15,640 bases of DNA from a virus: the UHGV virus genome UHGV-0333408; one strand, written 5' to 3'. Below are positions 480-14,349 of the stretch, one piece after another. The notes beneath the pieces are model-generated. The model did no database searches. It saw only the letters and a program-made list of their open reading frames with translations, and had not been told where the DNA came from. Made by a program: the position numbers and the translations under genes. Numbering within the stretch: position 1 is the stretch's first letter; every line of letters starts with the position of its first letter.

Positions 480-1298
<819 letters not shown>

Positions 1299-1435
1299 TC
1301 ATTGCAAGGGCTCACAACCAGTAGTGTTGAGAAAACCATCGGAGAAATGAGGCTAAGCCTTTGAATTTACATAGTACAAAAAAGATACTTTTCCTCATAA
1401 TGTGAGCTAATTTTATGTTTCGTTTGATGATTGGA

Positions 1436-1468
1436 CCGGTCTCGAAAACCGTAGACACATAGTATGCG
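1436..1468. repeat. Imperfect direct repeat, copy 2
   Basis: See copy 1 at 402-439. Confidence 0.5.
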
Positions 1469-1659
1469 TTAATTTATGAACAAACTACTTGTCTGCTGTT
1501 TTTCTGTCATTAGCCGTATATAGAATGATTCTCTATGCCTAACAAAGCATCACCAGTGCTAGATTACGTTGTAGTCACTGTTTAAATATCCAGATAAAAC
1601 ATTTCCTTCTGGGTTGAATGAGTGATAAAGTTTCACCCATTAGACCCCTTGGAGGAATT

Positions 1660-3093
1660 ATGTCTGAATTTGAAGTGTTGGCACAGCATCTGCTGAAGGA
1701 AGCCGAGGCGGAAGAAAAGCTGCGACAGGAAAATGATAAAAAGCTTATCGAGAAAGTGCTGGAAATCTATGATCAGAAGTATGTGGCTGAATTACTGAGA
1801 AAAGTCGGAAAAAATGAGTGGAGCCGTGAAACCATTAACCGCTGGATTAATGGCAAGTGTTTACCAAAATCGTTGACTTCAGTAGAAGAGTCTCTTCTGC
1901 GTAAGATGCTACCAGAACCACCTGCAAACCATCCGGAATATGCTTTCCGCTTCATTGACTTATTTGCTGGAATTGGAGGGATACGGAAAGGTTTTGAGGC
2001 CATTGGAGGCCAGTGTGTTTTTACCAGTGAATGGAATAAAGATGCTGTGCGTACATACAAGGCCAACTGGTTTAACGATGAACAGGTGCATAAATTCAAT
2101 CTCGATATTCGGGAAGTCACGCTGAGTGATAAAACCGATGTATTGGAAACGGATGCTTATGCATATATTGATGAGCATGTGCCGGATCATGATGTGCTTC
2201 TTGCGGGGTTCCCGTGCCAGCCATTTAGCCTTGCTGGTGTTAGTAAGAAAAACTCACTTGGTCGTGCGCATGGTTTTGAATGTGAAGCACAAGGAACACT
2301 TTTTTTTGACGTGGCACGTATTATACGAGCAAAAAAACCGGCAATTTTTGTGCTGGAAAATGTCAAAAATCTGAAGAGCCATGATAAGGGTAAAACTTTC
2401 AAAGTCATTATGGAGACCCTTGACGAGCTGGGCTACGAAGTTGCCGATGCTGCAGAAATGGGAAAAAACGATCCAAAGATTATCGATGGGAAGCATTTTT
2501 TGCCTCAGCATCGTGAACGCATTGTTCTGGTCGGATTTAGACGAGATCTGAATATTCACAAGGGGTTTACCTTGCGTGATATCAGTCGTTTTTATCCGGA
2601 ACACCGCCCATCATTTGGTGAATTGCTGGAGCCTGTAGTCGACAGTAAATATATACTTACGCCAAAACTATGGGAGTACCTTTATAACTACGCCAAAAAG
2701 CATGCAGCCAAGGGGAATGGTTTTGGCTTTGGGTTGGTCAATCCTGAGAATAAGGAAAGCATTGCACGCACACTTTCTGCCAGATATCACAAAGACGGAT
2801 CAGAAATTCTTATTGATCGTGGTTGGGATATGGCAACGGGAGAGGCTGACTTTATGAATGAGAGTAATCAGGCTCGTCGACCACGCAGGCTGACTCCCCG
2901 AGAGTGCGCACGCCTTATGGGATTTGAAAAACCTGGAGGGAAACCATTCCGTATTCCGGTTTCAGATACTCAGTCATATCGGCAGTTCGGTAACTCAGTT
3001 GTGGTGCCAGTATTTGAAGCTGTTGCCAGACTTCTGGAACCCTATATCCTCAAAGCTGTTTCTGCTGATGCTGGTAAGACTGGGCAGCCTTGA
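1660..3093 (+). CDS. ecoRIIM: DNA (cytosine-5) methyltransferase, Dcm / M.EcoRII-like (CCWGG family), 477 aa
   Basis: C5-methyltransferase motifs are present: [15 protein letters not shown] (motif I), [11 protein letters not shown] (motif IV, catalytic Cys), ENV (motif VI), [10 protein letters not shown] (motif X). The whole protein is near-colinear with E. coli Dcm as I recall it. The start is placed at the ATG at 1660 (GGAGG four nt upstream) rather than the first in-frame ATG at 1618 (no SD), giving 477 aa, the length I recall for M.EcoRII. Confidence 0.92.
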
Positions 3094-3099
3094 GAACAT

Positions 3100-3122
3100 C
3101 TCCCGGCCTTTTAAGCCGGGAG
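3100..3122. terminator. Stem-loop between the convergent M and R genes (CTCCCGGC-cttttaa-GCCGGGAG)
   Basis: An 8-bp perfect inverted repeat lies exactly between the two stop codons (3091-3093 and 3128-3130). There is no clear U-tract on either side, so function as a terminator is inferred from position only. Confidence 0.4.
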
Positions 3123-3127
3123 TCAGC

Positions 3128-4342
3128 CTATGATAGTTCAGCGTAAAGCTCTATCAGCTCAGTAATGAATGCTCCGAGCGTTATTAATTCTTCTCTAACT
3201 GCTTCTGGGTATTTTTTATGTAAAGTTGATGGTACAACGAGTCTGACACCCGCATCTTTCATTTCTCGGTATTGTGCTGAAGAAACACCTTCTTGCAGTG
3301 TAAATAAATGTACCTGATGGATTTTATCTGCTTCATTCAGTATCTGACGCCAGCGATCTTTGCAGGTGGTCTTTACTGCCAGCATACGTAAGTTTTCTAC
3401 AGGAAATTCAACGTTATGATATGCCTCTGCTGAAGGAAACAGGAAATCTGGTTTTTTATTACCTTCAGTAACTGCCTGAGTGGAGAAATGCCGTAGTCCG
3501 TGCTCGATAAAAAGCTTCTCTAGGTGAAGTTCAAGTGATTTGCCTGCCCTTGATTTACGTCGATTACTGACAGAGTTGGCTAATGCAATAAACTCATCTA
3601 CAGAATCGAATCCTTTCTTAATAATATCAAGAACATGTAATTCCTCGACGAGTAGAAAAATATCATACTCGACACGCCGACGGTCAATCAGTTGCTCATC
3701 TGGATCCTTGGAGTTTTTAGCATAATGGCCAGCAGCATATTGAATAATTTCGTTTCCAGAAGGAAAACGCTTCTTCCAGTCTTCAGGAATAACATATTTA
3801 TGATTTACTGGAGTTTGCTGAAGAGACAATCCGCCCAAAATTTGTCCGGCAGGGCCGGAAATTAGGGTTCCAGGTATGATTTCGCCAATAGCAGACTCGA
3901 TGATATCCTCTTCATCGGGATTGACGCAGACCCATATATCTACCTCGGAACAGTCAGTGTTCTGTTCGTTTAACCTGAAAGCAAGAATTGTGAGGGCTCC
4001 TGTATTTTCAGGGTTCTGTAATGGACTTCCTCTCCCCCAGCGCGTAATTCTTTTTTCGTTTCGGGTCTTACCAAAATAACGGTTGTTGTAATAAATTGCG
4101 CGTGCTTGGGTATCAGGGCAATCATGGGATGATACATGCGCAGTAAGGAAGACTGAAGGGTTCAGTTCGCGAGTATGATTGATAGATGGAAAAAGCTTTT
4201 CAACGATATTTGAGGGGATATAAAGTCCGACCTGATGGCCACCTGTTGCGCCTGTGTCGTTTGCAGAAAGGCGTTTGATGTAGATAAAGTAATTCCCGCT
4301 TGCGATATCAAGCAGCCAGTTATGAAAAACCGACATATACAT
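3128..4342 (-). CDS. ecoRIIR: Type IIE restriction endonuclease, EcoRII-like, 404 aa
   Basis: 404-codon ORF convergent with the Dcm-like gene. Numbering from the first ATG puts Asp299 in KPDFLF, Lys324 in LAVKTT and Glu337 in ILNEADK, which are the catalytic residues I recall being published for EcoRII. The length equals the recalled 404 aa. A better Shine-Dalgarno (AAGGGA) serves the ATG two codons downstream at 4336, so the start is ambiguous by two codons. Confidence 0.88.
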   Translation of the reverse strand: MYMSVFHNWLLDIASGNYFIYIKRLSANDTGATGGHQVGLYIPSNIVEKLFPSINHTRELNPSVFLTAHVSSHDCPDTQARAIYYNNRYFGKTRNEKRITRWGRGSPLQNPENTGALTILAFRLNEQNTDCSEVDIWVCVNPDEEDIIESAIGEIIPGTLISGPAGQILGGLSLQQTPVNHKYVIPEDWKKRFPSGNEIIQYAAGHYAKNSKDPDEQLIDRRRVEYDIFLLVEELHVLDIIKKGFDSVDEFIALANSVSNRRKSRAGKSLELHLEKLFIEHGLRHFSTQAVTEGNKKPDFLFPSAEAYHNVEFPVENLRMLAVKTTCKDRWRQILNEADKIHQVHLFTLQEGVSSAQYREMKDAGVRLVVPSTLHKKYPEAVREELITLGAFITELIELYAELS

Positions 4343-5476: not shown

Positions 5477-6652
5477 TTATTTTTTGATTGTTTTCAATGC
5501 ATTTGCTGATGTGTTGTTATCGTAATCCTTTAGATACCTACCATAGTGCCTAAATAGCATTTCAGGCCCTTTATGACCCATTTGAGCCGCCAACCAGAAT
5601 AAGTTCACACCACGACTGATTTGTCGAGTCGCGAAGGTATGGCGTGTTTGGTATGGATTTCGGTACCGAATACCAGCCTTTCGCAATGTTGGCACCCATG
5701 CTTTTTTTCTAATTGCATCAGCACTTGCCCAGGGCTTATTGGTCTTTGGATCTTCAAAGACAGTAGCATCCTTCATGAATGTAAATGGCTTCTGGTTTAT
5801 CAACGCCAACATTGCTTCTTCAGTCAGTTCAACTTTACGGGTACCGGCTTTTGTCTTTGTCCCTTTGATAACACCAACAACACTTGCGCTCTGGACATGG
5901 GCAGTTTTCCCAACAAAGTCGATATCTCGCCATCGAAGGGCACATAATTCAGAACTACGCAGGCCTGTATGTATAGCGAACCGGAACAGATTTTCCCATT
6001 GTTTGTTTGCGGCTGCTGCTAGTAATGCATCAACTTCTGCTGGTGATAGCGGATCAACCACGTAGCTGCTTTCTGCTTCTGACTTATCACTTTGGTAGCG
6101 CGAAGCAGTTACTAACGATACGGGGTTAATTTGAAGTACCCCATCGGTCACGGCTTCATCAAGTGCTGACCGCAGGAAAGATAACTGGTTGCGAATGGTT
6201 TTTAAGGTAGTTTTCTGGCTTTGAATCCACGCTTTCAGGGTTGCTGGTGTTAATTCACTTGCAGGGCAAATGTGAAGTGAGGCTAACGCACTACGGCATT
6301 TTTTATAACCACCAATCGTAGAGGGTGAAAGTTTTCTTGTTTCGCAGATTTCAAGATATTCGTCTAGGTACATTTTTACCGTTTTGCCTGCAGCAGCATT
6401 ACCAAAAATTTTCAAACGAGCAGAACTGGGAAAATATTCCGCATAAATGAATGTTCCCCTTTCGATCTTATTATGAATTTCGCCGAGTGTGCGCTCGGCG
6501 TATTTAATGTTCTTTGGTGTTACTTCCAGATTGGAAAGAGGCTCACGACATTTAACACCTTTGTAGGTGAAAGTTATATTGATCGTTTCGCCCTGGCGGT
6601 GTTTCCTGATTGTTACGCCGCGCGGTAGTTTGAGCAGTTTTGTCTGGCCCAT
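5477..6652 (-). CDS. int: Tyrosine-type site-specific integrase (lambda Int family), 391 aa
   Basis: The C-terminal catalytic region has the conserved RHTFAT and FRHYGRY (tyrosine nucleophile) blocks. GAGG lies 8 nt upstream of the ATG. The gene reads toward the ssrA-derived att core, with an excisionase-like gene overlapping its 5' end, as in lambda. Confidence 0.93.
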   Translation of the reverse strand: MGQTKLLKLPRGVTIRKHRQGETINITFTYKGVKCREPLSNLEVTPKNIKYAERTLGEIHNKIERGTFIYAEYFPSSARLKIFGNAAAGKTVKMYLDEYLEICETRKLSPSTIGGYKKCRSALASLHICPASELTPATLKAWIQSQKTTLKTIRNQLSFLRSALDEAVTDGVLQINPVSLVTASRYQSDKSEAESSYVVDPLSPAEVDALLAAAANKQWENLFRFAIHTGLRSSELCALRWRDIDFVGKTAHVQSASVVGVIKGTKTKAGTRKVELTEEAMLALINQKPFTFMKDATVFEDPKTNKPWASADAIRKKAWVPTLRKAGIRYRNPYQTRHTFATRQISRGVNLFWLAAQMGHKGPEMLFRHYGRYLKDYDNNTSANALKTIKK

Positions 6653-10082: not shown

Positions 10083-10775
10083 TTAATTGTGTCGCTTAAG
10101 GGTTTGTGACTGGCTGATTAAGACCTTTCCAAAGACCATAAACCGGTGTTCATTTTCGCTGGTAATTCCCCATTCACGGTAAATCTGGTTATCAGAAATC
10201 ACCAGTAGTTTGTCAGGTATCATTTGCAGTCGTTTGACATAAATTTTATCATCAAAACCAAATACATAGATACCATCTCCATCAAACTGATTGATACTGA
10301 CATCAACGAAGATGAGATCTCCTGGCTCAATGGTTGGACACATACTGTCCCCACGAACGTTGATAACTTTGATGTGATTGGCTGGTCGTCCGCCGAACAT
10401 TGATACAGCATTATCAGTTCTGTATTCGATGGCATGAATCACATCAATGACATCACCGCCCTGGATAAGGCCATTTCCCGCACTGGCACTGACATCCAGC
10501 ATTTCAATACGGAATACATCCTTCACCTGCGCAACATCCTCACTAATACTGTTTTTACATACAGTATTACTTTTGAAGTCTGAGGTAAAGAGATCAGCAA
10601 TATCAACACCTAAGCTCCTGGCAATATTACTCAGGGCTTGTTCAGTGAATTGTTTCTGCTTACCTGTTTCCAGGCGTGAGATATTCGCCGCATCCACTCC
10701 TATTGCTTCAGCGAGATCGGCGATTTTCATGTTCTTCGCCTGGCGAAGTTGTCTGACTCGATTTCCTATGTTCAT
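10083..10775 (-). CDS. cI-like prophage repressor (HTH_XRE plus S24 LexA-type autopeptidase), 230 aa
   Basis: N-terminal HTH (KIADLAEAIGVDAANISRLETGK). C-terminal S24 peptidase with the Ser nucleophile in RGDSMCPTI and Lys in YVKRL. A candidate Ala-Gly autocleavage site lies in SASAGNG. The gene is divergent from a cro-like gene. Confidence 0.9.
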   Translation of the reverse strand: MNIGNRVRQLRQAKNMKIADLAEAIGVDAANISRLETGKQKQFTEQALSNIARSLGVDIADLFTSDFKSNTVCKNSISEDVAQVKDVFRIEMLDVSASAGNGLIQGGDVIDVIHAIEYRTDNAVSMFGGRPANHIKVINVRGDSMCPTIEPGDLIFVDVSINQFDGDGIYVFGFDDKIYVKRLQMIPDKLLVISDNQIYREWGITSENEHRFMVFGKVLISQSQTLKRHN

Positions 10776-10872: not shown

Positions 10873-11133
10873 ATGCAATCACCATTACGGAATGTGCGTA
10901 AAGCGCACGGATTTACTTTGCAGCATGTTGCTGCGGGCGTTCAGGTCAATCCAGCGACGCTGAGTCGTATTGAAAGACTGGAACAAATTCCATCTATCGA
11001 CCTTGCAGAACGTCTGGCCAATTTTTTTAAGGGTGAAATCAGCGAAATGCAGATTCTTTATCCGGCACGTTTTCAATCTAGCCAAAACCAGAATGGGTTT
11101 AAACCACAGGAACAGGAGGTAAGCCGTGGGTAA
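10873..11133 (+). CDS. Cro-like HTH transcriptional regulator (86 aa)
   Basis: HTH_XRE signature (GFTLQHVAAGVQVNPATLSRIERLEQ). GGAGG lies 5 nt upstream of the ATG. Divergent from the cI-like gene across the operator region. Confidence 0.8.
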   Translation: MQSPLRNVRKAHGFTLQHVAAGVQVNPATLSRIERLEQIPSIDLAERLANFFKGEISEMQILYPARFQSSQNQNGFKPQEQEVSRG

Positions 11134-11677
11134 GCATCACTGGAAAGTGGAAAAACAACCTGACTGGTACGTGAAAGCTGTCAGAAAAACTATCGCGGCA
11201 TTGCCAGGTGGTTACGCTGAAGCTGCTGATTGGCTGGATGTAACAGAGAACGCATTATTTAATCGCCTTCGTGCCGATGGTGATCAGTTTTTTCCGTTGG
11301 GATGGGCAATGGTTTTACAGCGCGCGGCTGGCACTCACTACATTGCGGATGCTGTCGCACAGTCTGCTGGTGGGGTGTTCGTATCGCTTCCTGAAATTGA
11401 GGAAGTAGAGAACGCCGATATAAACCAGCGCCTGCTGGAAGTCATCGAACAGATCGGGAGTTACTCAAAGCAGATTCGTTCGGCAATCGAAGATGGGGTC
11501 GTGGAGCCACACGAGCAGACAGCAATTAATGATGAGTTGTATCTGTCAATTTCGAAGCTCCAGGAGCATGCAGCACTGGTCTACAAAATCTTTTGCGCTC
11601 CAGAAAAGAGTGACGCCCGCGAGTGTGCAGCTCCGGGCGTCGTGGCGTTTTGTGTCTGTGGAGAAACTAACGCATGA
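11126..11677 (+). CDS. CII-like regulator (CP76 / YdaT-like family), 183 aa
   Basis: GTG start with AGGAGG 7 nt upstream, overlapping the cro stop. Lies immediately downstream of cro, as CII and YdaT homologues do. The family call is from recalled resemblance and position, not a confirmed match. Confidence 0.55.
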   Translation: MGKHHWKVEKQPDWYVKAVRKTIAALPGGYAEAADWLDVTENALFNRLRADGDQFFPLGWAMVLQRAAGTHYIADAVAQSAGGVFVSLPEIEEVENADINQRLLEVIEQIGSYSKQIRSAIEDGVVEPHEQTAINDELYLSISKLQEHAALVYKIFCAPEKSDARECAAPGVVAFCVCGETNA

Positions 11678-12825
11678 ACAGTTTAACGGCAAATAACCGT
11701 TTGTCGCAACAACCGGTGGTCAGCGTCGCTGAACACCGGTTGTTATGGCATGAATGCAGATTACCAAATCACCTGGCTGTAAGTAACCACAGAGAACTTT
11801 ACCTGACTGTGGGGGGCGAGTTGTGCAGGAACTTAACCGCTGGTTTCGTGACGGAAGAGGACTTTATGTTCATGTTATTCGTTGGGAGCCAGAAACACAG
11901 CGCGTTATCTATCTTCGCAAAGACTACCCGCATGAGTGCTTTAGTCCTTTGTGGAAATTCAGGCGTGATTTTGTTGAGTGTGAAGGACCACCAGCACATT
12001 GATTCTGCCATTCCGGGACGTTACACTGTTCAGGCACCTTATAAAACGGGTGCCGGGCGTGGAAACCCGGAATTCACCAAAGCGCACAACCGCGCTCTTG
12101 CGGTTTTTTTGTGTCATGAGCAGCATTACGCCCAAATTATGGTGGGGCGTGCAGGGCCAACTTCGGTTGGGCCGGGTTCTTTGGTGACCGGTATTTCCAC
12201 CCCTGTACGTCTCACCACCAATAAGGTCGTGGAAAGCCTTGGTGGTGAGTTATTAAAAATCACCAAAGAGGCTGCCATCATGGCTACGATCCCAACCCTC
12301 ACTCAACCTGAAATTGCCATCGTTGATGGTCAGGCTGTTACTTCATCCTTGGCTGTTGCCAACTTCTTCTCCAAACGTCATGACGATGTACTGAAAAAGA
12401 TCCGCACGCTTGAATGCTCAGCATCATTCACTGCCCGCAATTTTTCGGTGAGTGATTACACTGATTGCACAGGTCGCAAACTTCCTTGCTACCAAATCAC
12501 ACGCGACGGTTTTGCGTTTCTTGCTATGGGTTTCACGGGTAAACGTGCTGCCCAGTTCAAGGAGGCATACATCAATGCCTTTAACCAGATGGAGAAACAG
12601 CTTTCAAAGCCCTCTGTACCGAGCGACGTTGCACATAACGCCAGCGTTCTCTGTTCCTACATTTCATCAATTCATCAGGTCTGGCTGCAGCAGCTTTATC
12701 CTATGTTGGCAAAAGCCGAATCTCCGCTGGCTGTTAGCTTGTATGACTATATTAATGATGCTTCGGCACTGGCCTGCCTCATAAATTTGTCGCTGAACCC
12801 TTCAGAGGTATGGGGGCGCAAATGA
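11674..12825 (+). CDS. Rha-domain phage regulatory protein (383 aa as read; N-terminal ~200 aa of uncertain coding status)
   Basis: The C-terminal ~180 aa (from the ATG at 12280, which has AAGAGG upstream) reads as a Rha / ORF6N-type domain (PTLTQPEIAIVDGQAVTSSLAVANFFSKRHDDVLKKIR ... ITRDGFAFLAMGFTGKRAAQFKEAYINAF). The N-terminal 200 aa has atypical composition, and an alternative-frame ORF exists at 11823-12002. Confidence 0.6.
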   Translation: MNSLTANNRLSQQPVVSVAEHRLLWHECRLPNHLAVSNHRELYLTVGGELCRNLTAGFVTEEDFMFMLFVGSQKHSALSIFAKTTRMSALVLCGNSGVILLSVKDHQHIDSAIPGRYTVQAPYKTGAGRGNPEFTKAHNRALAVFLCHEQHYAQIMVGRAGPTSVGPGSLVTGISTPVRLTTNKVVESLGGELLKITKEAAIMATIPTLTQPEIAIVDGQAVTSSLAVANFFSKRHDDVLKKIRTLECSASFTARNFSVSDYTDCTGRKLPCYQITRDGFAFLAMGFTGKRAAQFKEAYINAFNQMEKQLSKPSVPSDVAHNASVLCSYISSIHQVWLQQLYPMLAKAESPLAVSLYDYINDASALACLINLSLNPSEVWGRK

Positions 12826-13046
12826 TCCGGAATATTTTCAAACGGTTTACCAATCAGACTTTCCGTTGTCCTCGCCCCGGTCAGTGGTACACCACGCCTG
12901 CAGGGCATGTTCTACGTGTCAGCCTGGTTGACCGTGAATGTCAGAAGGTGATTTGTGAACCGCTGGGCCGTAATTATCGCGTCAGTATGCCGCTTATAGC
13001 CTTTCGCTCCGGAAAAAACATGAAGCATCTCGGAGGTGCAGCATGA
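12822..13046 (+). CDS. Small prophage protein (74 aa)
   Basis: The ATG at 12822 overlaps the upstream stop as ATGA and has GGGGG upstream. It is part of a chain of translationally coupled genes. Confidence 0.5.
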   Translation: MIRNIFKRFTNQTFRCPRPGQWYTTPAGHVLRVSLVDRECQKVICEPLGRNYRVSMPLIAFRSGKNMKHLGGAA

Positions 13047-13861
13047 GTATGGAGCTGATGGTTAAAGCGATGAAAATTCGAGTGGGAAATCCATTGCGAA
13101 AACTGGTTCTGATCAAGCTGGCTGATAATGCCAGCGATCAGGGGGAGTGCTGGCCCAGCTACCAGCATATTGCTGACCAGTGCGAGATTAGCAAACGTTC
13201 TGTGATGAATCATATTGCGGCCCTTTGTGAGTCCGGGCTGGTAAAAAAAGTCACCCGGAAAGGTGAAAAAGGTAACTCAAGTAATATCTATCTCCTTCAT
13301 CTGGATGGTGCAGGAGATTCACTAGGGGGTAGTGCAAATAATTCACTATCTGGTGCAGCAAATTCACCAGGTAGTGCAGGAGTTGCACCAGGGGGTAGTG
13401 CAGGAGATTCACCCAGAACCAGTCACTCTTTTGAACCAGTCAAAGAACCAGTCAATGAACCAATAGCTGTTGGTGCATCAGTTGATGAGTCCGTGCGAGT
13501 TCGTTCAAACCGACCGGAATACTCTCCGGAGTTTGAGCAGGCATGGCTGGCATACCCCAAACGTGCTGGTGGCAATTCAAAATCTGCAGCCTTCAAAGCC
13601 TGGAAAGCCCGTTTGAATGAGGGGGTAAAACCCGAAACCATGCTGGAAGGTGTGAAACGCTACGCGGGCTGGGTATCTGCGATGGGTAACAGCGGCACAC
13701 AATTTGTGAAACAGGCTGTCACGTTCTTTGGTCCGGATCGTCATTTCGAAGAATCCTGGGAAGTTCCTGCGGTATCTGCAGCCAGACGCGAGGACCCGTA
13801 CTTCAAAGCCAGTTACGACAACGTGGACTACAGCCAGATCCCGGCAGGATTCAGGGGGTAA
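13043..13861 (+). CDS. Replication initiator, lambda O-like (N-terminal winged-helix HTH, internal repeat linker), 272 aa
   Basis: The N-terminal RKLVLIKLADNASDQGECWPSYQHIADQCEISKRSVMNHIAALCESGLVKK resembles replication-initiator HTH domains. The middle of the gene is encoded by tandem DNA repeats (iteron-like). The start overlaps the upstream stop as ATGA. Confidence 0.6.
   Translation: MSMELMVKAMKIRVGNPLRKLVLIKLADNASDQGECWPSYQHIADQCEISKRSVMNHIAALCESGLVKKVTRKGEKGNSSNIYLLHLDGAGDSLGGSANNSLSGAANSPGSAGVAPGGSAGDSPRTSHSFEPVKEPVNEPIAVGASVDESVRVRSNRPEYSPEFEQAWLAYPKRAGGNSKSAAFKAWKARLNEGVKPETMLEGVKRYAGWVSAMGNSGTQFVKQAVTFFGPDRHFEESWEVPAVSAARREDPYFKASYDNVDYSQIPAGFRG
13305..13465. repeat. Iteron-like tandem repeats inside the O-like gene (putative prophage replication origin)
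   Basis: About five tandem copies of a ~21-bp unit (GGT(A/G)GTGCAGGAGATTCACC and variants) at 13305-13415, followed by three copies of GAACCAGTCAA at 13418-13460. Lambda also carries its ori iterons inside O. Confidence 0.55.
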
Positions 13862-13863
13862 TC

Positions 13864-14349
13864 ATGAGTCTTTTGAATGAAGTTCAGAAATTCATTGAAG
13901 CCCATCCGGGGTGTACTTCCGGAGACATTGCGGATGCTTTTGCAGGTTACTCACGGCAGCGCGTTCTGCAGTCAGCAAGCAAGTTACGTCAGAGTGGGCG
14001 TGTGGCTCACCGTTGTGAAGGAGATACACGCAGACATTTCCCACGCCTGACTGAGAGAGCGCAGGAGCCGGAACCACAACCAGTTCGTGAAACCAGACCT
14101 GTGCGCAATTTCTATGTCGGCACTAACGATCCCCGGGTGATTTTGTTGACCCGCCAGGCGGAAGAACTGGAGTCCAGGGGCTTATACCGTCGTGCTGCAA
14201 CGGTGTGGATGGCGGCATTCCGTGAAAGCCACTCCCAGCCAGAACGAAACAATTTTCTGGCGCATCGTGAGCGGTGCTTACGGAAAAGCAGCAAGCGCGC
14301 TGCATCGGGTGAAGAGTGGTATCTGTCAGGGAATTACGTGGGGGCTTAA
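13864..14349 (+). CDS. PerC-family-like transcriptional regulator (161 aa)
   Basis: The block AEELESRGLYRRAATVWMA matches the LE.RG.WRRAA.VW signature I recall for PerC/Pch proteins. An N-terminal winged-helix-like region precedes it. Confidence 0.5.
   Translation: MSLLNEVQKFIEAHPGCTSGDIADAFAGYSRQRVLQSASKLRQSGRVAHRCEGDTRRHFPRLTERAQEPEPQPVRETRPVRNFYVGTNDPRVILLTRQAEELESRGLYRRAATVWMAAFRESHSQPERNNFLAHRERCLRKSSKRAASGEEWYLSGNYVGA

What the first reader, a model, noticed from the sequence alone, without database searches (positions are those of the whole stretch)
13043..13861. Replication origin candidate inside the O-like gene, with no helicase-loader gene downstream
Five ~21-bp tandem repeats plus three GAACCAGTCAA repeats (13305-13465) encode a low-complexity Gly/Ser/Ala linker between an N-terminal HTH and a C-terminal domain, as iterons sit inside lambda O. 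The next genes are a PerC-like regulator and a Dam-like methyltransferase, not a P-, DnaC- or DnaB-like gene, so the replication module is either non-canonical or incomplete. Repeat-number variation here would also change the protein linker length.
Basis: partly seen in the sequence, partly recalled or inferred. Interest (0 to 1): 0.4.

Follow-up and report, generated by a model that had tools for sequence, protein, structure and literature searches.

The report
Phage replication origin inside initiator gene
The repeats in this prophage gene are very probably the binding sites of the protein that the gene itself encodes, that is, a lambda-style replication origin hidden in a coding sequence, belonging to a large and so far undescribed family of such origins, and here working without any phage-encoded helicase or helicase loader.

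Summary
ORF 13043-13861 (+) encodes a 272-aa initiator: an N-terminal winged helix (Pfam HTH_36), a disordered linker and a small helical C-domain. The linker DNA holds five 15-bp dyads GTGCA-N5-TKCAC (13308-13412, spacing 24/21/21/24). They abut a ~37-bp block with three GAACCAGTCA repeats.

Comparison with about 190 homologous loci from many gamma-proteobacterial genera shows that the DNA, not the peptide, is conserved:
- The same dyad occurs in two reading frames.
- Linker GC3 is 0.12-0.27 against 0.5-0.9 in the flanking domains.
- Third codon positions of the block are 90-100% invariant.
- Each recognition-helix class has its own dyad, with the same geometry.

So the iteron and origin reading is well supported, though untested experimentally.

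The absence of a loader gene is real. It does not mean the module is incomplete: the viable phages SfV, mEp460 and cdtI carry the same initiator-only module. Close relatives keep DnaC-like and DnaB-like genes right after rep, which implies use of the host DnaB/DnaC here.

The module matches type Eru6 of Stx phages, for which no replication data exist. It is a new variant of the lambda O/ori-lambda principle, of moderate interest.

The parts
13043..13861 (+). rep gene: 272-aa replication initiator (N-terminal winged helix, repeat-encoded linker, C-terminal helical domain)
   Evidence: ORF list and translation. Pfam HTH_36: 44.1 bits against a cut-off of 25. PHROG 270 'replication initiation protein': 2e-88. 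The gene is 98-99% identical to the annotated replication protein of phages SfV, mEp460, cdtI, 2H10, Stx2a_WGPS2 and Stx2c phages.
13043..13303 (+). N-terminal winged-helix DNA-binding domain (aa 1-87). Residues 1-48 are invariant across the family. Residues 50-85 (recognition helix 51-64 plus wing) are class-specific.
   Evidence: AlphaFold model: H17-28, H40-47, H51-64, E67-73, E79-85, pLDDT 77-90. Variable against invariant segments across 78 loci.
13308..13322 (.). iteron 1, GTGCAGGAGATTCAC (dyad 5-N5-5)
13332..13346 (.). iteron 2, GTGCAAATAATTCAC
13353..13367 (.). iteron 3, GTGCAGCAAATTCAC
13374..13388 (.). iteron 4, GTGCAGGAGTTGCAC (perfect GTGCA/TGCAC dyad, matches the pattern on both strands)
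13398..13412 (.). iteron 5, GTGCAGGAGATTCAC. It ends exactly 2 nt before the invariant block, as in nearly all homologues.
13413..13450 (.). family-wide invariant DNA block CCAGAACCAGTCACTCTTTTGAACCAGTCAAAGAACC (encodes P-RTSHSFEPVKEP). Candidate unwinding or helicase-entry element, and the recombination junction between the N-domain/iteron module and the C-domain module.
   Evidence: 78 loci: third codon positions are 0.90-1.00 conserved, and variation sits at 1st/2nd positions. 31-37 of 39 nt are identical between the window and Pseudomonas or Aeromonas genes whose N-domain codons are saturated. More than 120 IMG/VR contigs carry the block, each once. The divergence breakpoint against ST64B lies right after it.
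13416..13466 (.). array of GAACCAGTCA repeats (13416, 13433, 13445; degenerate copy 13457), spacing 17/12/12. Copy number is 2-4 in relatives.
13520..13756 (+). C-terminal helical domain (aa ~160-238; motif FxxxWxxYPKR...KAW...QFVKQAxTFF), the presumed helicase- or loader-recruiting module
   Evidence: AlphaFold with a 64-sequence alignment: pLDDT 74.5, helices at aa 162-170, 180-193 and 197-217. No Pfam, NCBIfam or PDB sequence match. Foldseek matches in viral models are phage replisome organizers, DUF1376, RepA-like and DnaD-like proteins. The same domain is fused to other origin-binding N-termini. In relatives it is followed by DnaC-like and DnaB-like genes.
13826..13858 (+). C-terminal tail DYSQIPAGFRG. 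The ..P(A/P)GFRG ending is shared only by Reps whose loci lack a phage dnaB-like gene.
   Evidence: 5 of 5 loci; small sample, correlation only

Best explanation
Region 13305-13466 is the replication origin of this SfV/Eru6-type lambdoid prophage, embedded in the gene of its own initiator. Which steps are shown and which are inferred is marked below.

1. After derepression, rightward transcription from the cI/cro region expresses Rep (inferred from gene order).
2. Rep dimers bind through the recognition helix and wing of the N-terminal winged helix (aa 50-85) to five 15-bp dyad sites GTGCA-N5-TKCAC. The sites are spaced 21 or 24 bp apart, about two helical turns, so they lie on one face of the DNA. 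Binding builds an O-some-like complex. Binding itself is inferred. The co-variation of helix class and half-site, and the DNA-level conservation, are shown.
3. The array sits in fixed register with an invariant ~37-bp block of GAACCAGTCA repeats: the last site always ends 2 nt before the block. I take the block to be the place where the duplex opens and the helicase enters. It would be comparable to the AT-rich tract of ori-lambda or to the repeated 13-mers of oriC and RK2 oriV (inferred; about 45% confident).
4. The C-terminal helical domain brings in the replicative helicase. In relatives the partner genes (DnaC/IstB-like AAA+ protein and DnaB-like helicase, or lambda-P-like proteins for other C-domain classes) lie immediately downstream. 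In this lineage they are absent, so host DnaB with host DnaC must be used (inferred; about 50% for direct recruitment by this domain).
5. Unequal recombination among the repeats changes both the iteron number and the linker length (shown: 5 or 8 sites in complete phage genomes, 1-9 implied by protein variants).
For: Motif statistics: five sites against 0.10 expected.

DNA-level conservation:
- The identical 15-mer occurs in Pseudomonas, Pluralibacter, Enterobacter, Zymobacter and Aeromonas genes.
- It is read as GAGDS in one frame and as VQEIHQ in another. Compensating 23+22 spacings keep the geometry.
- GC3 of linker plus junction is 0.20-0.27 in Pseudomonas, where the N- and C-domains have 0.74-0.89. 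In the window the values are 0.12 against 0.52.
- At identical N-domain residues only 23-53% of codons are identical, yet the junction keeps 31-37 of 39 nt.
- Third codon positions of the junction are 0.90-1.00 conserved. In the protein-constrained motif RKLVLIKLAD they vary (0.43-0.81).

Specificity co-variation, with the geometry kept:
- SKRSVMNH goes with GTGCA..TGCAC.
- SKRSVMRH goes with GTGAC..GTCAC.
- xRSTVKxH goes with GGGC..GCCC.
- DRSTVRKH goes with TAGGC..AGCA.
- CSKSAVRxH goes with TGCC..GGCA.

Independent replication, on IMG/VR contigs seeded only by the DNA block:
- 109 of 111 blocks lie in such an ORF.
- 105 of 111 have a 4-5/5 dyad ending 2 nt before the block.
- The last spacing is 24 in 99 of 111.

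Modularity: C-domain class correlates with the downstream partner. ST64B shares the N-domain, iterons and junction (1-5% divergence) but not the C-part (17-40%).

Viability of the loader-less module: the complete genomes of SfV and mEp460 have no helicase, loader or primase annotated. The gene is present at 80% coverage or more in 897 of 5426 complete E. coli genomes.

Precedent: ori-lambda lies in the middle of O as iterons plus an AT-rich tract, and 4 against 6 iterons changes O by 13 aa (PMC7466680).
Against: - No experiment exists: Fagerlund et al. 2022 state that nothing is known about replication of Eru phages (PMC8951638).
- The block is only moderately AT-rich (GC 0.40-0.43).
- In this window the least stable 30-bp stretch lies left of the iterons (about 13265-13295). 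The block is only at the 5.5% quantile, although it is within the least stable 5% in 71 of 78 loci.
- The very low and very high copy-number variants come partly from short-read assemblies, which can collapse repeats.
- Dyad symmetry with compensatory half-site changes would also fit RNA hairpins. However, the RNA fold z-score is -0.57, and the co-variation with the recognition helix argues for protein binding.
Confidence: 0.78

Rival explanations
1. The dyads are genuine Rep-binding sites, but they serve autoregulation, copy control, incompatibility or a transcriptional roadblock. The site where replication actually starts lies elsewhere in the prophage.
For: Iterons in plasmids have such dual roles (general knowledge). 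In this window the least stable DNA is not in the block. No origin mapping exists.
Against: The sites lie mid-gene, not at a promoter, and no sigma-70-like promoter was found in 12700-14000. [quoted passage not shown] No other repeat array exists in the window.
Confidence: 0.1
2. The module is defective or helper-dependent. Loss of the DnaC-like and DnaB-like genes left a prophage that cannot replicate on its own, or one that uses another, unrecognised phage protein (Ash/Rha, the 78-aa ORF or the PerC-like protein) as loader.
For: Close relatives in E. coli (77% identity), Klebsiella and Citrobacter keep DnaC-like and DnaB-like genes directly after rep. 23 of 27 loci with the same C-domain class have them.
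Against: Isolated phages SfV, mEp460, cdtI, Ayreon, 2H10 and several Stx2 phages carry the same loader-less operon. It is present in 897 complete E. coli genomes at 95-100% identity. The neighbours (78-aa ORF, PerC, Dam, LexA-like) are not linked to rep in distant loci.
Confidence: 0.08
3. The repeats are only a slippage-prone low-complexity protein linker, or an mRNA structure, with no function as DNA.
For: The peptide is Gly/Ser/Ala/Pro-rich and predicted to be disordered. Copy number varies.
Against: The same DNA word is read in different frames. GC3 is depressed against host bias. Third positions are more conserved than first and second positions, and the reverse holds in a control motif. 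The RNA fold z-score is -0.57.
Confidence: 0.02

Closest known systems
Phage lambda O protein and ori-lambda (also lambdoid Stx phages P27 and 933W)
   Same: The origin lies in the middle of the initiator gene. Dyad-symmetric iterons are phased at about two helical turns and encode the linker between the DNA-binding N-domain and the partner-binding C-domain. An adjacent element is thought to open. Iteron number varies and changes the protein length (4 against 6 iterons = 13 aa; PMC7466680). N-domain and iterons are exchanged as a unit.
   Different: The protein is HTH_36, not Phage_rep_O. Sites are 15-bp 5-N5-5 dyads rather than the lambda iterons (18-19 bp, from my own knowledge). A sequence-invariant block with 10-12-mer repeats stands in place of a plain AT-rich tract. 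There is no P gene, and the C-domain is unrelated in sequence.
Eru6 replication unit of Shiga-toxin phages (Fagerlund et al. 2022, PMC8951638; representative Stx2a_WGPS2, AP012537)
   Same: The same gene: 98.3% nucleotide identity over the whole rep gene (H29). Same neighbours: an Rha/Ash protein and an HTH_36 protein.
   Different: That paper classifies the unit by gene content only and states that nothing is known about how Eru phages replicate. Iterons, the invariant block and the domain logic are not described there.
Replisome organizers of Gram-positive phages (SPP1 G38P type) and DnaD-like proteins
   Same: An N-terminal winged helix binds repeats inside its own gene, and a C-terminal part contacts the loader or helicase (SPP1: my own knowledge). 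There is a weak DnaD_N Pfam hit (24.3 bits). Foldseek matches of the C-domain go to 'replisome organizer' and 'DnaD' phage proteins.
Iteron plasmid origins with repeated DUE 13-mers (RK2 oriV/TrfA, F ori2/RepE) and oriC
   Same: An array of initiator sites lies next to short direct repeats where the duplex opens (general knowledge; review PMC4980987 listed, not read).
   Different: No Rep_3-type WH1-WH2 initiator. The origin is inside a coding sequence. No DnaA box was noticed on inspecting the block by eye (no scan was run).

Membership tests
lambda-type origin embedded in the initiator gene (functional class) | Array of repeated initiator-binding sites inside the initiator ORF, between the DNA-binding domain and the partner-binding domain | tested here: met
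   Five dyads at 13308-13412, in the linker between the winged helix (aa 1-87) and the C-domain (aa 160-238).
lambda-type origin embedded in the initiator gene (functional class) | Sites are constrained as DNA and co-vary with the DNA-binding domain of the initiator | tested here: met
   Frame-independent conservation, GC3 depression, and helix-class to half-site correspondence in 78 + 111 loci.
lambda-type origin embedded in the initiator gene (functional class) | Adjacent easily melted (AT-rich) unwinding element | tested here: inconclusive
   The block has GC 0.40-0.43. It is among the least stable 5% of windows in 71 of 78 loci, but only at the 5.5% quantile in this window.
lambda-type origin embedded in the initiator gene (functional class) | The region supports initiator-dependent replication | not testable with these tools
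   Needs a mini-replicon assay or marker-frequency analysis.
Phage_rep_O (lambda O protein family, PF04492) | Sequence match to the family profile | tested here: not met
   No PF04492 hit at E <= 0.01; the best hit is HTH_36.
Phage_rep_O (lambda O protein family, PF04492) | Cognate P-type loader gene immediately downstream | tested here: not met
   Downstream genes are PerC-like, Dam and LexA_DNA_bind. None is annotated in the complete SfV and mEp460 genomes.
HTH_36 (PF13730) winged-helix proteins | Score above the Pfam gathering threshold | tested here: met
   44.1 bits against 25, residues 17-67.
DnaD-like / replisome organizer | DnaD_N (PF21984) or DnaB_2-type C-domain above threshold, or a significant fold match | tested here: inconclusive
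Eru6 replication unit of Stx phages | Rha/Ash protein and HTH_36 protein in the early-right operon next to cI, like the representative AP012537 | tested here: met
   Ash+Rha ORF 11674-12825 and HTH_36 ORF 13043-13861. 98.3% identity to AP012537. Definition from PMC8951638.
Iteron-plasmid Rep (Rep_3, WH1-WH2) | Sequence match to Rep_3-type initiators | tested here: not met
   No such Pfam or NCBIfam hit.

The most novel reading that the evidence does not exclude
A pan-gamma-proteobacterial, modular origin design that appears undescribed. An invariant ~37-bp DNA block is conserved nucleotide for nucleotide from E. coli to Pseudomonas, Shewanella and Aeromonas, regardless of what it encodes. It is the common unwinding and helicase-entry element, possibly recognised by the equally invariant first 48 residues of the initiator. 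In fixed register with it sit interchangeable arrays of 5-N5-5 dyads, whose half-sites follow a simple, readable code set by the recognition helix. Swappable C-domains and C-terminal tails then decide which helicase system is recruited: phage DnaC/DnaB, P-like, or host-only with the ..PAGFRG tail.
Probability: 0.35. Interest if true: 0.65.

Novelty: new variant of a known kind. Interest (0 to 1): 0.5.

Why it matters
- It gives a concrete, testable origin (13305-13466) for a replication module found in about one in six complete E. coli genomes. The same module is carried by Shigella serotype-converting phage SfV, Salmonella ST64B, cdt phages and Eru6 Shiga-toxin phages, whose replication is uncharacterised although it drives toxin gene dosage.
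- The natural series of recognition-helix and half-site pairs with fixed geometry is a ready-made data set for decoding winged-helix specificity, and for building orthogonal origin-initiator pairs.
- The loader-less version, next to close relatives that keep DnaC/DnaB genes, offers a clean comparison for asking how a phage initiator hands the host helicase to an origin.
- The region is also a caution for annotation: 'low-complexity linkers' can be cis-acting DNA.

Tried and rejected
- C-domain identification failed by sequence: Pfam and NCBIfam at E up to 10 and PDB sequence profiles.
- The first whole-protein AlphaFold model was too poor in the C-part (pLDDT 56-71) and was redone with a deeper alignment.
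- Literature: searches for the repeat sequences, for SfV/ST64B origin descriptions and for HTH_36 iterons found nothing relevant. The SfV genome paper and Weigel & Seitz 2006 are not held, so an earlier in-silico prediction there cannot be excluded.
- The Eru1-3 types were checked and do not match.
- A 10-nt inverted copy of the block at 13102-13111 (I5) is confined to this window (1 of 83 loci) and was rejected as chance.
- RNA structure was rejected (z = -0.57).
- No promoter-like site was found, and only one chance-level terminator-like site, in 12700-14000.
- Inspecting the block by eye showed no convincing DnaA-box or IHF consensus (my own reading, not a tool result).
- Polymorphism among 48 close alleles showed fewer variable sites in the repeats (7 in 161 nt against 61 in 658 nt). 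The diversity is too low to carry weight, so divergent homologues were used instead.
- The neighbours (78-aa ORF, PerC, Dam, LexA-like) were tested for linkage with rep in distant loci and are not linked.

Full report
**What is there**

The window is the early region of a lambdoid prophage. From left to right it carries:
- an integrase (5477-6652, minus strand);
- a cI-type repressor (10083-10775, minus strand);
- cro (10873-11133);
- a CII-like protein (11126-11677);
- an Ash/Rha protein (11674-12825);
- a 78-aa ORF (12810-13046);
- the gene in question (13043-13861);
- a PerC-like gene, Dam, and a small LexA_DNA_bind protein.

The 272-aa product has an N-terminal HTH_36 winged helix (44.1 bits) and matches PHROG 270 'replication initiation protein' (2e-88). 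AlphaFold gives a confident winged helix for residues 1-87, a disordered stretch for residues 91-159, and a helical C-terminal domain.

**The observation**

Both repeat arrays are real. The informative unit is a 15-bp dyad, GTGCA-N5-TKCAC. It is present five times, at 13308, 13332, 13353, 13374 and 13398 (spacing 24, 21, 21, 24). Nowhere else in the 15.6 kb does it occur, against 0.10 expected by chance. Two bases after the last dyad begins CCAGAACCAGTCACTCTTTTGAACCAGTCAAAGAACCAGTCAATGAACC, with three exact GAACCAGTCA copies.

**Is it DNA or peptide that is conserved?**

I collected three sets of relatives:
- 80 close relatives from IMG/VR;
- 80 distant relatives from one genome per species;
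- 120 IMG/VR contigs found with the DNA block alone.

Five results point to the DNA.

1. Same word, different frames. Homologues of the same recognition-helix class carry the same 15-mer. They come from Pseudomonas, Pluralibacter, Enterobacter, Zymobacter and Aeromonas. One copy is typically read in another frame: GTG CAG GAG ATT CAC gives VQEIH, whereas (G)GT GCA GGA GAT TCA C gives GAGDS. Spacings of 23+22 replace 21+24, so the geometry is kept while the peptide changes.
2. Codon bias. In Pseudomonas genes GC3 is 0.74-0.89 in the N-domain and 0.74-0.81 in the C-domain, but 0.20-0.27 in the linker and junction. In the window itself the values are 0.52, 0.52 and 0.12.
3. Saturated flanks. Between the window and these genes, only 23-53% of codons are identical at identical N-domain residues. 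The 39 nt at the junction nevertheless keep 31-37 identities.
4. Codon positions. Across 78 loci the third codon positions of AGA ACC AGT CAC TCT TTT GAA CCA GTC are 0.90-1.00 conserved. The variation sits at first and second positions. A control in the same genes, the protein-constrained motif RKLVLIKLAD, shows the opposite pattern.
5. No RNA signal. An RNA-structure explanation has no support (z = -0.57).

**Specificity**

The first 48 residues of the protein are nearly invariant across the family. The recognition helix and wing fall into classes, and each class has its own dyad with the same 5-N5-5 form and the same 21/21/24 phasing:

| Recognition-helix class | Dyad |
|---|---|
| SKRSVMNH | GTGCA..TGCAC |
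| SKRSVMRH | GTGAC..GTCAC |
| xRSTVKxH | GGGC(A/G)G..CTGCCC |
| DRSTVR(K/R)H | TAGGC..AGCA |
| CSKSAVRxH | TGCC..GGCA |
| Shewanella TRRSVMTH | GTGAA..TTCAC |

The relation was reproduced in the independent sample seeded by the DNA block only:
- 109 of 111 blocks lie in an ORF with the conserved N-terminal motif.
- 105 of 111 have a 4-5/5 dyad ending exactly 2 nt before the block.
- 104 of 111 have three or more copies.
- The last spacing is 24 in 99 of 111.
- A further class appeared: MSRKTAIGH with GTGTA..TACAC.

This is the pattern expected of a DNA-binding domain and its cognate sites evolving together. It is also the pattern known for O and ori in lambdoid phages.

**Modularity and the missing loader**

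After the invariant block the proteins diverge into at least five unrelated C-terminal domain classes. The class correlates with the next gene:
- The class found here is followed by an IstB/DnaC-like AAA+ protein and/or a DnaB-like helicase (usually both) in 23 of 27 loci.
- Other classes are followed by a lambda-P-like protein, or by uncharacterised 268-aa or 174-aa proteins.

Even close relatives of the window protein keep DnaC-like and DnaB-like genes directly after rep. These are an E. coli variant at 77% identity, and Klebsiella/Raoultella and Citrobacter variants with the same iterons. The window lineage does not have them.

This is not decay:
- SfV and mEp460 are complete genomes of isolated phages with the same operon. 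Neither has a helicase, loader or primase annotated.
- cdtI, 2H10, Ayreon, Stx2c phages and Stx2a_WGPS2 carry the same gene.
- 897 of 5426 complete E. coli genomes hold it nearly full-length.

The most economical inference is that the C-domain recruits a DnaB-family helicase with a DnaC-type loader, and that in this lineage the host proteins serve.

The C-domain itself is uncharacterised:
- It has no Pfam, NCBIfam or PDB sequence match.
- Only weak Foldseek matches were found, to phage replisome organizers, DUF1376, RepA-like and DnaD-annotated proteins.
- It also occurs fused to Phage_rep_O, DUF1376 and other N-termini, and as a stand-alone protein. That fits a portable recruiting module.

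One small correlation is worth recording. The tail ..P(A/P)GFRG ends only Reps whose loci lack a phage dnaB-like gene (5 of 5). Reps with phage DnaC/DnaB end in ..NF..NW or ..AGxGQ.

**The invariant block**

Its function is the least certain part. It is single-copy per contig and in fixed register with the last iteron. It contains 2-4 copies of a 10-12-mer. It is among the least stable 5% of 30-bp windows in 71 of 78 loci.

By analogy with the AT-rich tract of ori-lambda (PMC7466680), and with the repeated 13-mers of oriC and RK2 (my own knowledge), I take it as the opening and helicase-entry element. Two facts weaken this for the window itself. The block is only moderately AT-rich, and the least stable stretch is left of the iterons.

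The block is also the recombination junction. ST64B is 1-5% divergent up to and including it, and 17-40% divergent after it.

**Copy number**

Complete phage genomes have five iterons, or eight in cdtI. The cdtI array is a clean 66-bp, three-site duplication that keeps the 24/21/21 phasing. The 12-mer occurs two, three or four times. Protein variants of 242-302 aa imply one to nine sites. Some of these come from short-read assemblies and may be artefacts. As in lambda against Stx phages, site number and linker length change together.

**Comparison with what is known**

Functionally this works like lambda O and ori-lambda. The protein is not a Phage_rep_O member, and there is no P gene, so it should not be filed in that family.

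The module equals 'Eru6' of Fagerlund et al. 2022 (representative Stx2a_WGPS2, 98.3% identical). That paper classifies by gene content and states that nothing is known about Eru phage replication.

I found no paper describing these sites. The SfV genome paper and the Weigel & Seitz review could not be read.

**Verdict**

- The origin reading is strongly supported by comparative evidence, but not experimentally shown (confidence about 0.78).
- The 'incomplete module' alternative is unlikely.
- It is a new variant of a known kind. Interest is moderate: a specialist would expect iterons in an O-like gene, but not the invariant block, the clean recognition code or the loader-less design.

Noticed in passing
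window 12034-12222 (+), inside ORF 11674-12825: Rfam gathering-level hits to the isrK Hfq-binding sRNA (12034-12110, 67.9 bits) and the C4 antisense RNA (12135-12222, 83.6 bits). They lie inside the 383-aa 'Ash/Rha' ORF. This suggests a P1/P7-like c4-ant immunity cassette upstream of the Rha/antirepressor part, and the long ORF call may be wrong at its 5' end.
   Followed up: no
window 480-4342: Cargo at the prophage end next to the integrase: a GIY-YIG (LEM-3-like) protein (480-1253, minus strand), a Dcm-type C5 cytosine methylase (1618-3093, plus strand) and an EcoRII restriction endonuclease (3128-4342, minus strand).
   Followed up: no
window 13826-13858; L094, L125, L162, L163 (Rep C-termini): The C-terminal tail ..IPAGFRG / ..VPPGFRG is shared by Reps with unrelated C-domains (classes C1 and C5). 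It is seen only in loci without a phage dnaB-like gene (5 of 5). Reps followed by DnaC-like and DnaB-like genes end in ..NF..NW or ..AGxGQ. It may be a short docking motif for the host helicase.
   Followed up: partly
L168 (ST64B) against window 13043-13861: Sharp mosaic boundary. N-domain, iterons and junction are 1-5% divergent, and everything after the 12-mer repeats is 17-40% divergent. The invariant block therefore acts as a recombination joint between modules.
   Followed up: yes
E. coli K-12 genomes (rows H96, H114): The cryptic prophage of K-12 keeps the last 74 nt of this rep gene next to yfdN, the PerC-family gene. K-12 thus carries a remnant of the same module. That this prophage is CPS-53/KpLE1 is my own knowledge, supported only by an annotation note in the mEp460 record.
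   Followed up: no
L084-L113 (Pseudomonas and others), gene after rep: Reps with the C2-class C-domain (PRCEIPADMPGPKD...) are followed in 17 of 21 loci by a conserved ~268-aa protein with no Pfam family. Aeromonas C4-class Reps are followed by a ~174-aa protein, also without a family. These may be unrecognised helicase-loader types.
   Followed up: partly
window 13262-13300: The least stable 30-bp stretch of the rep region lies just left of the iterons (GC about 0.33; AGTAATATCTATCTCCTTCATCTG). It is not conserved as DNA in Pseudomonas homologues. It is an alternative candidate for the opening site in this particular phage.
   Followed up: partly
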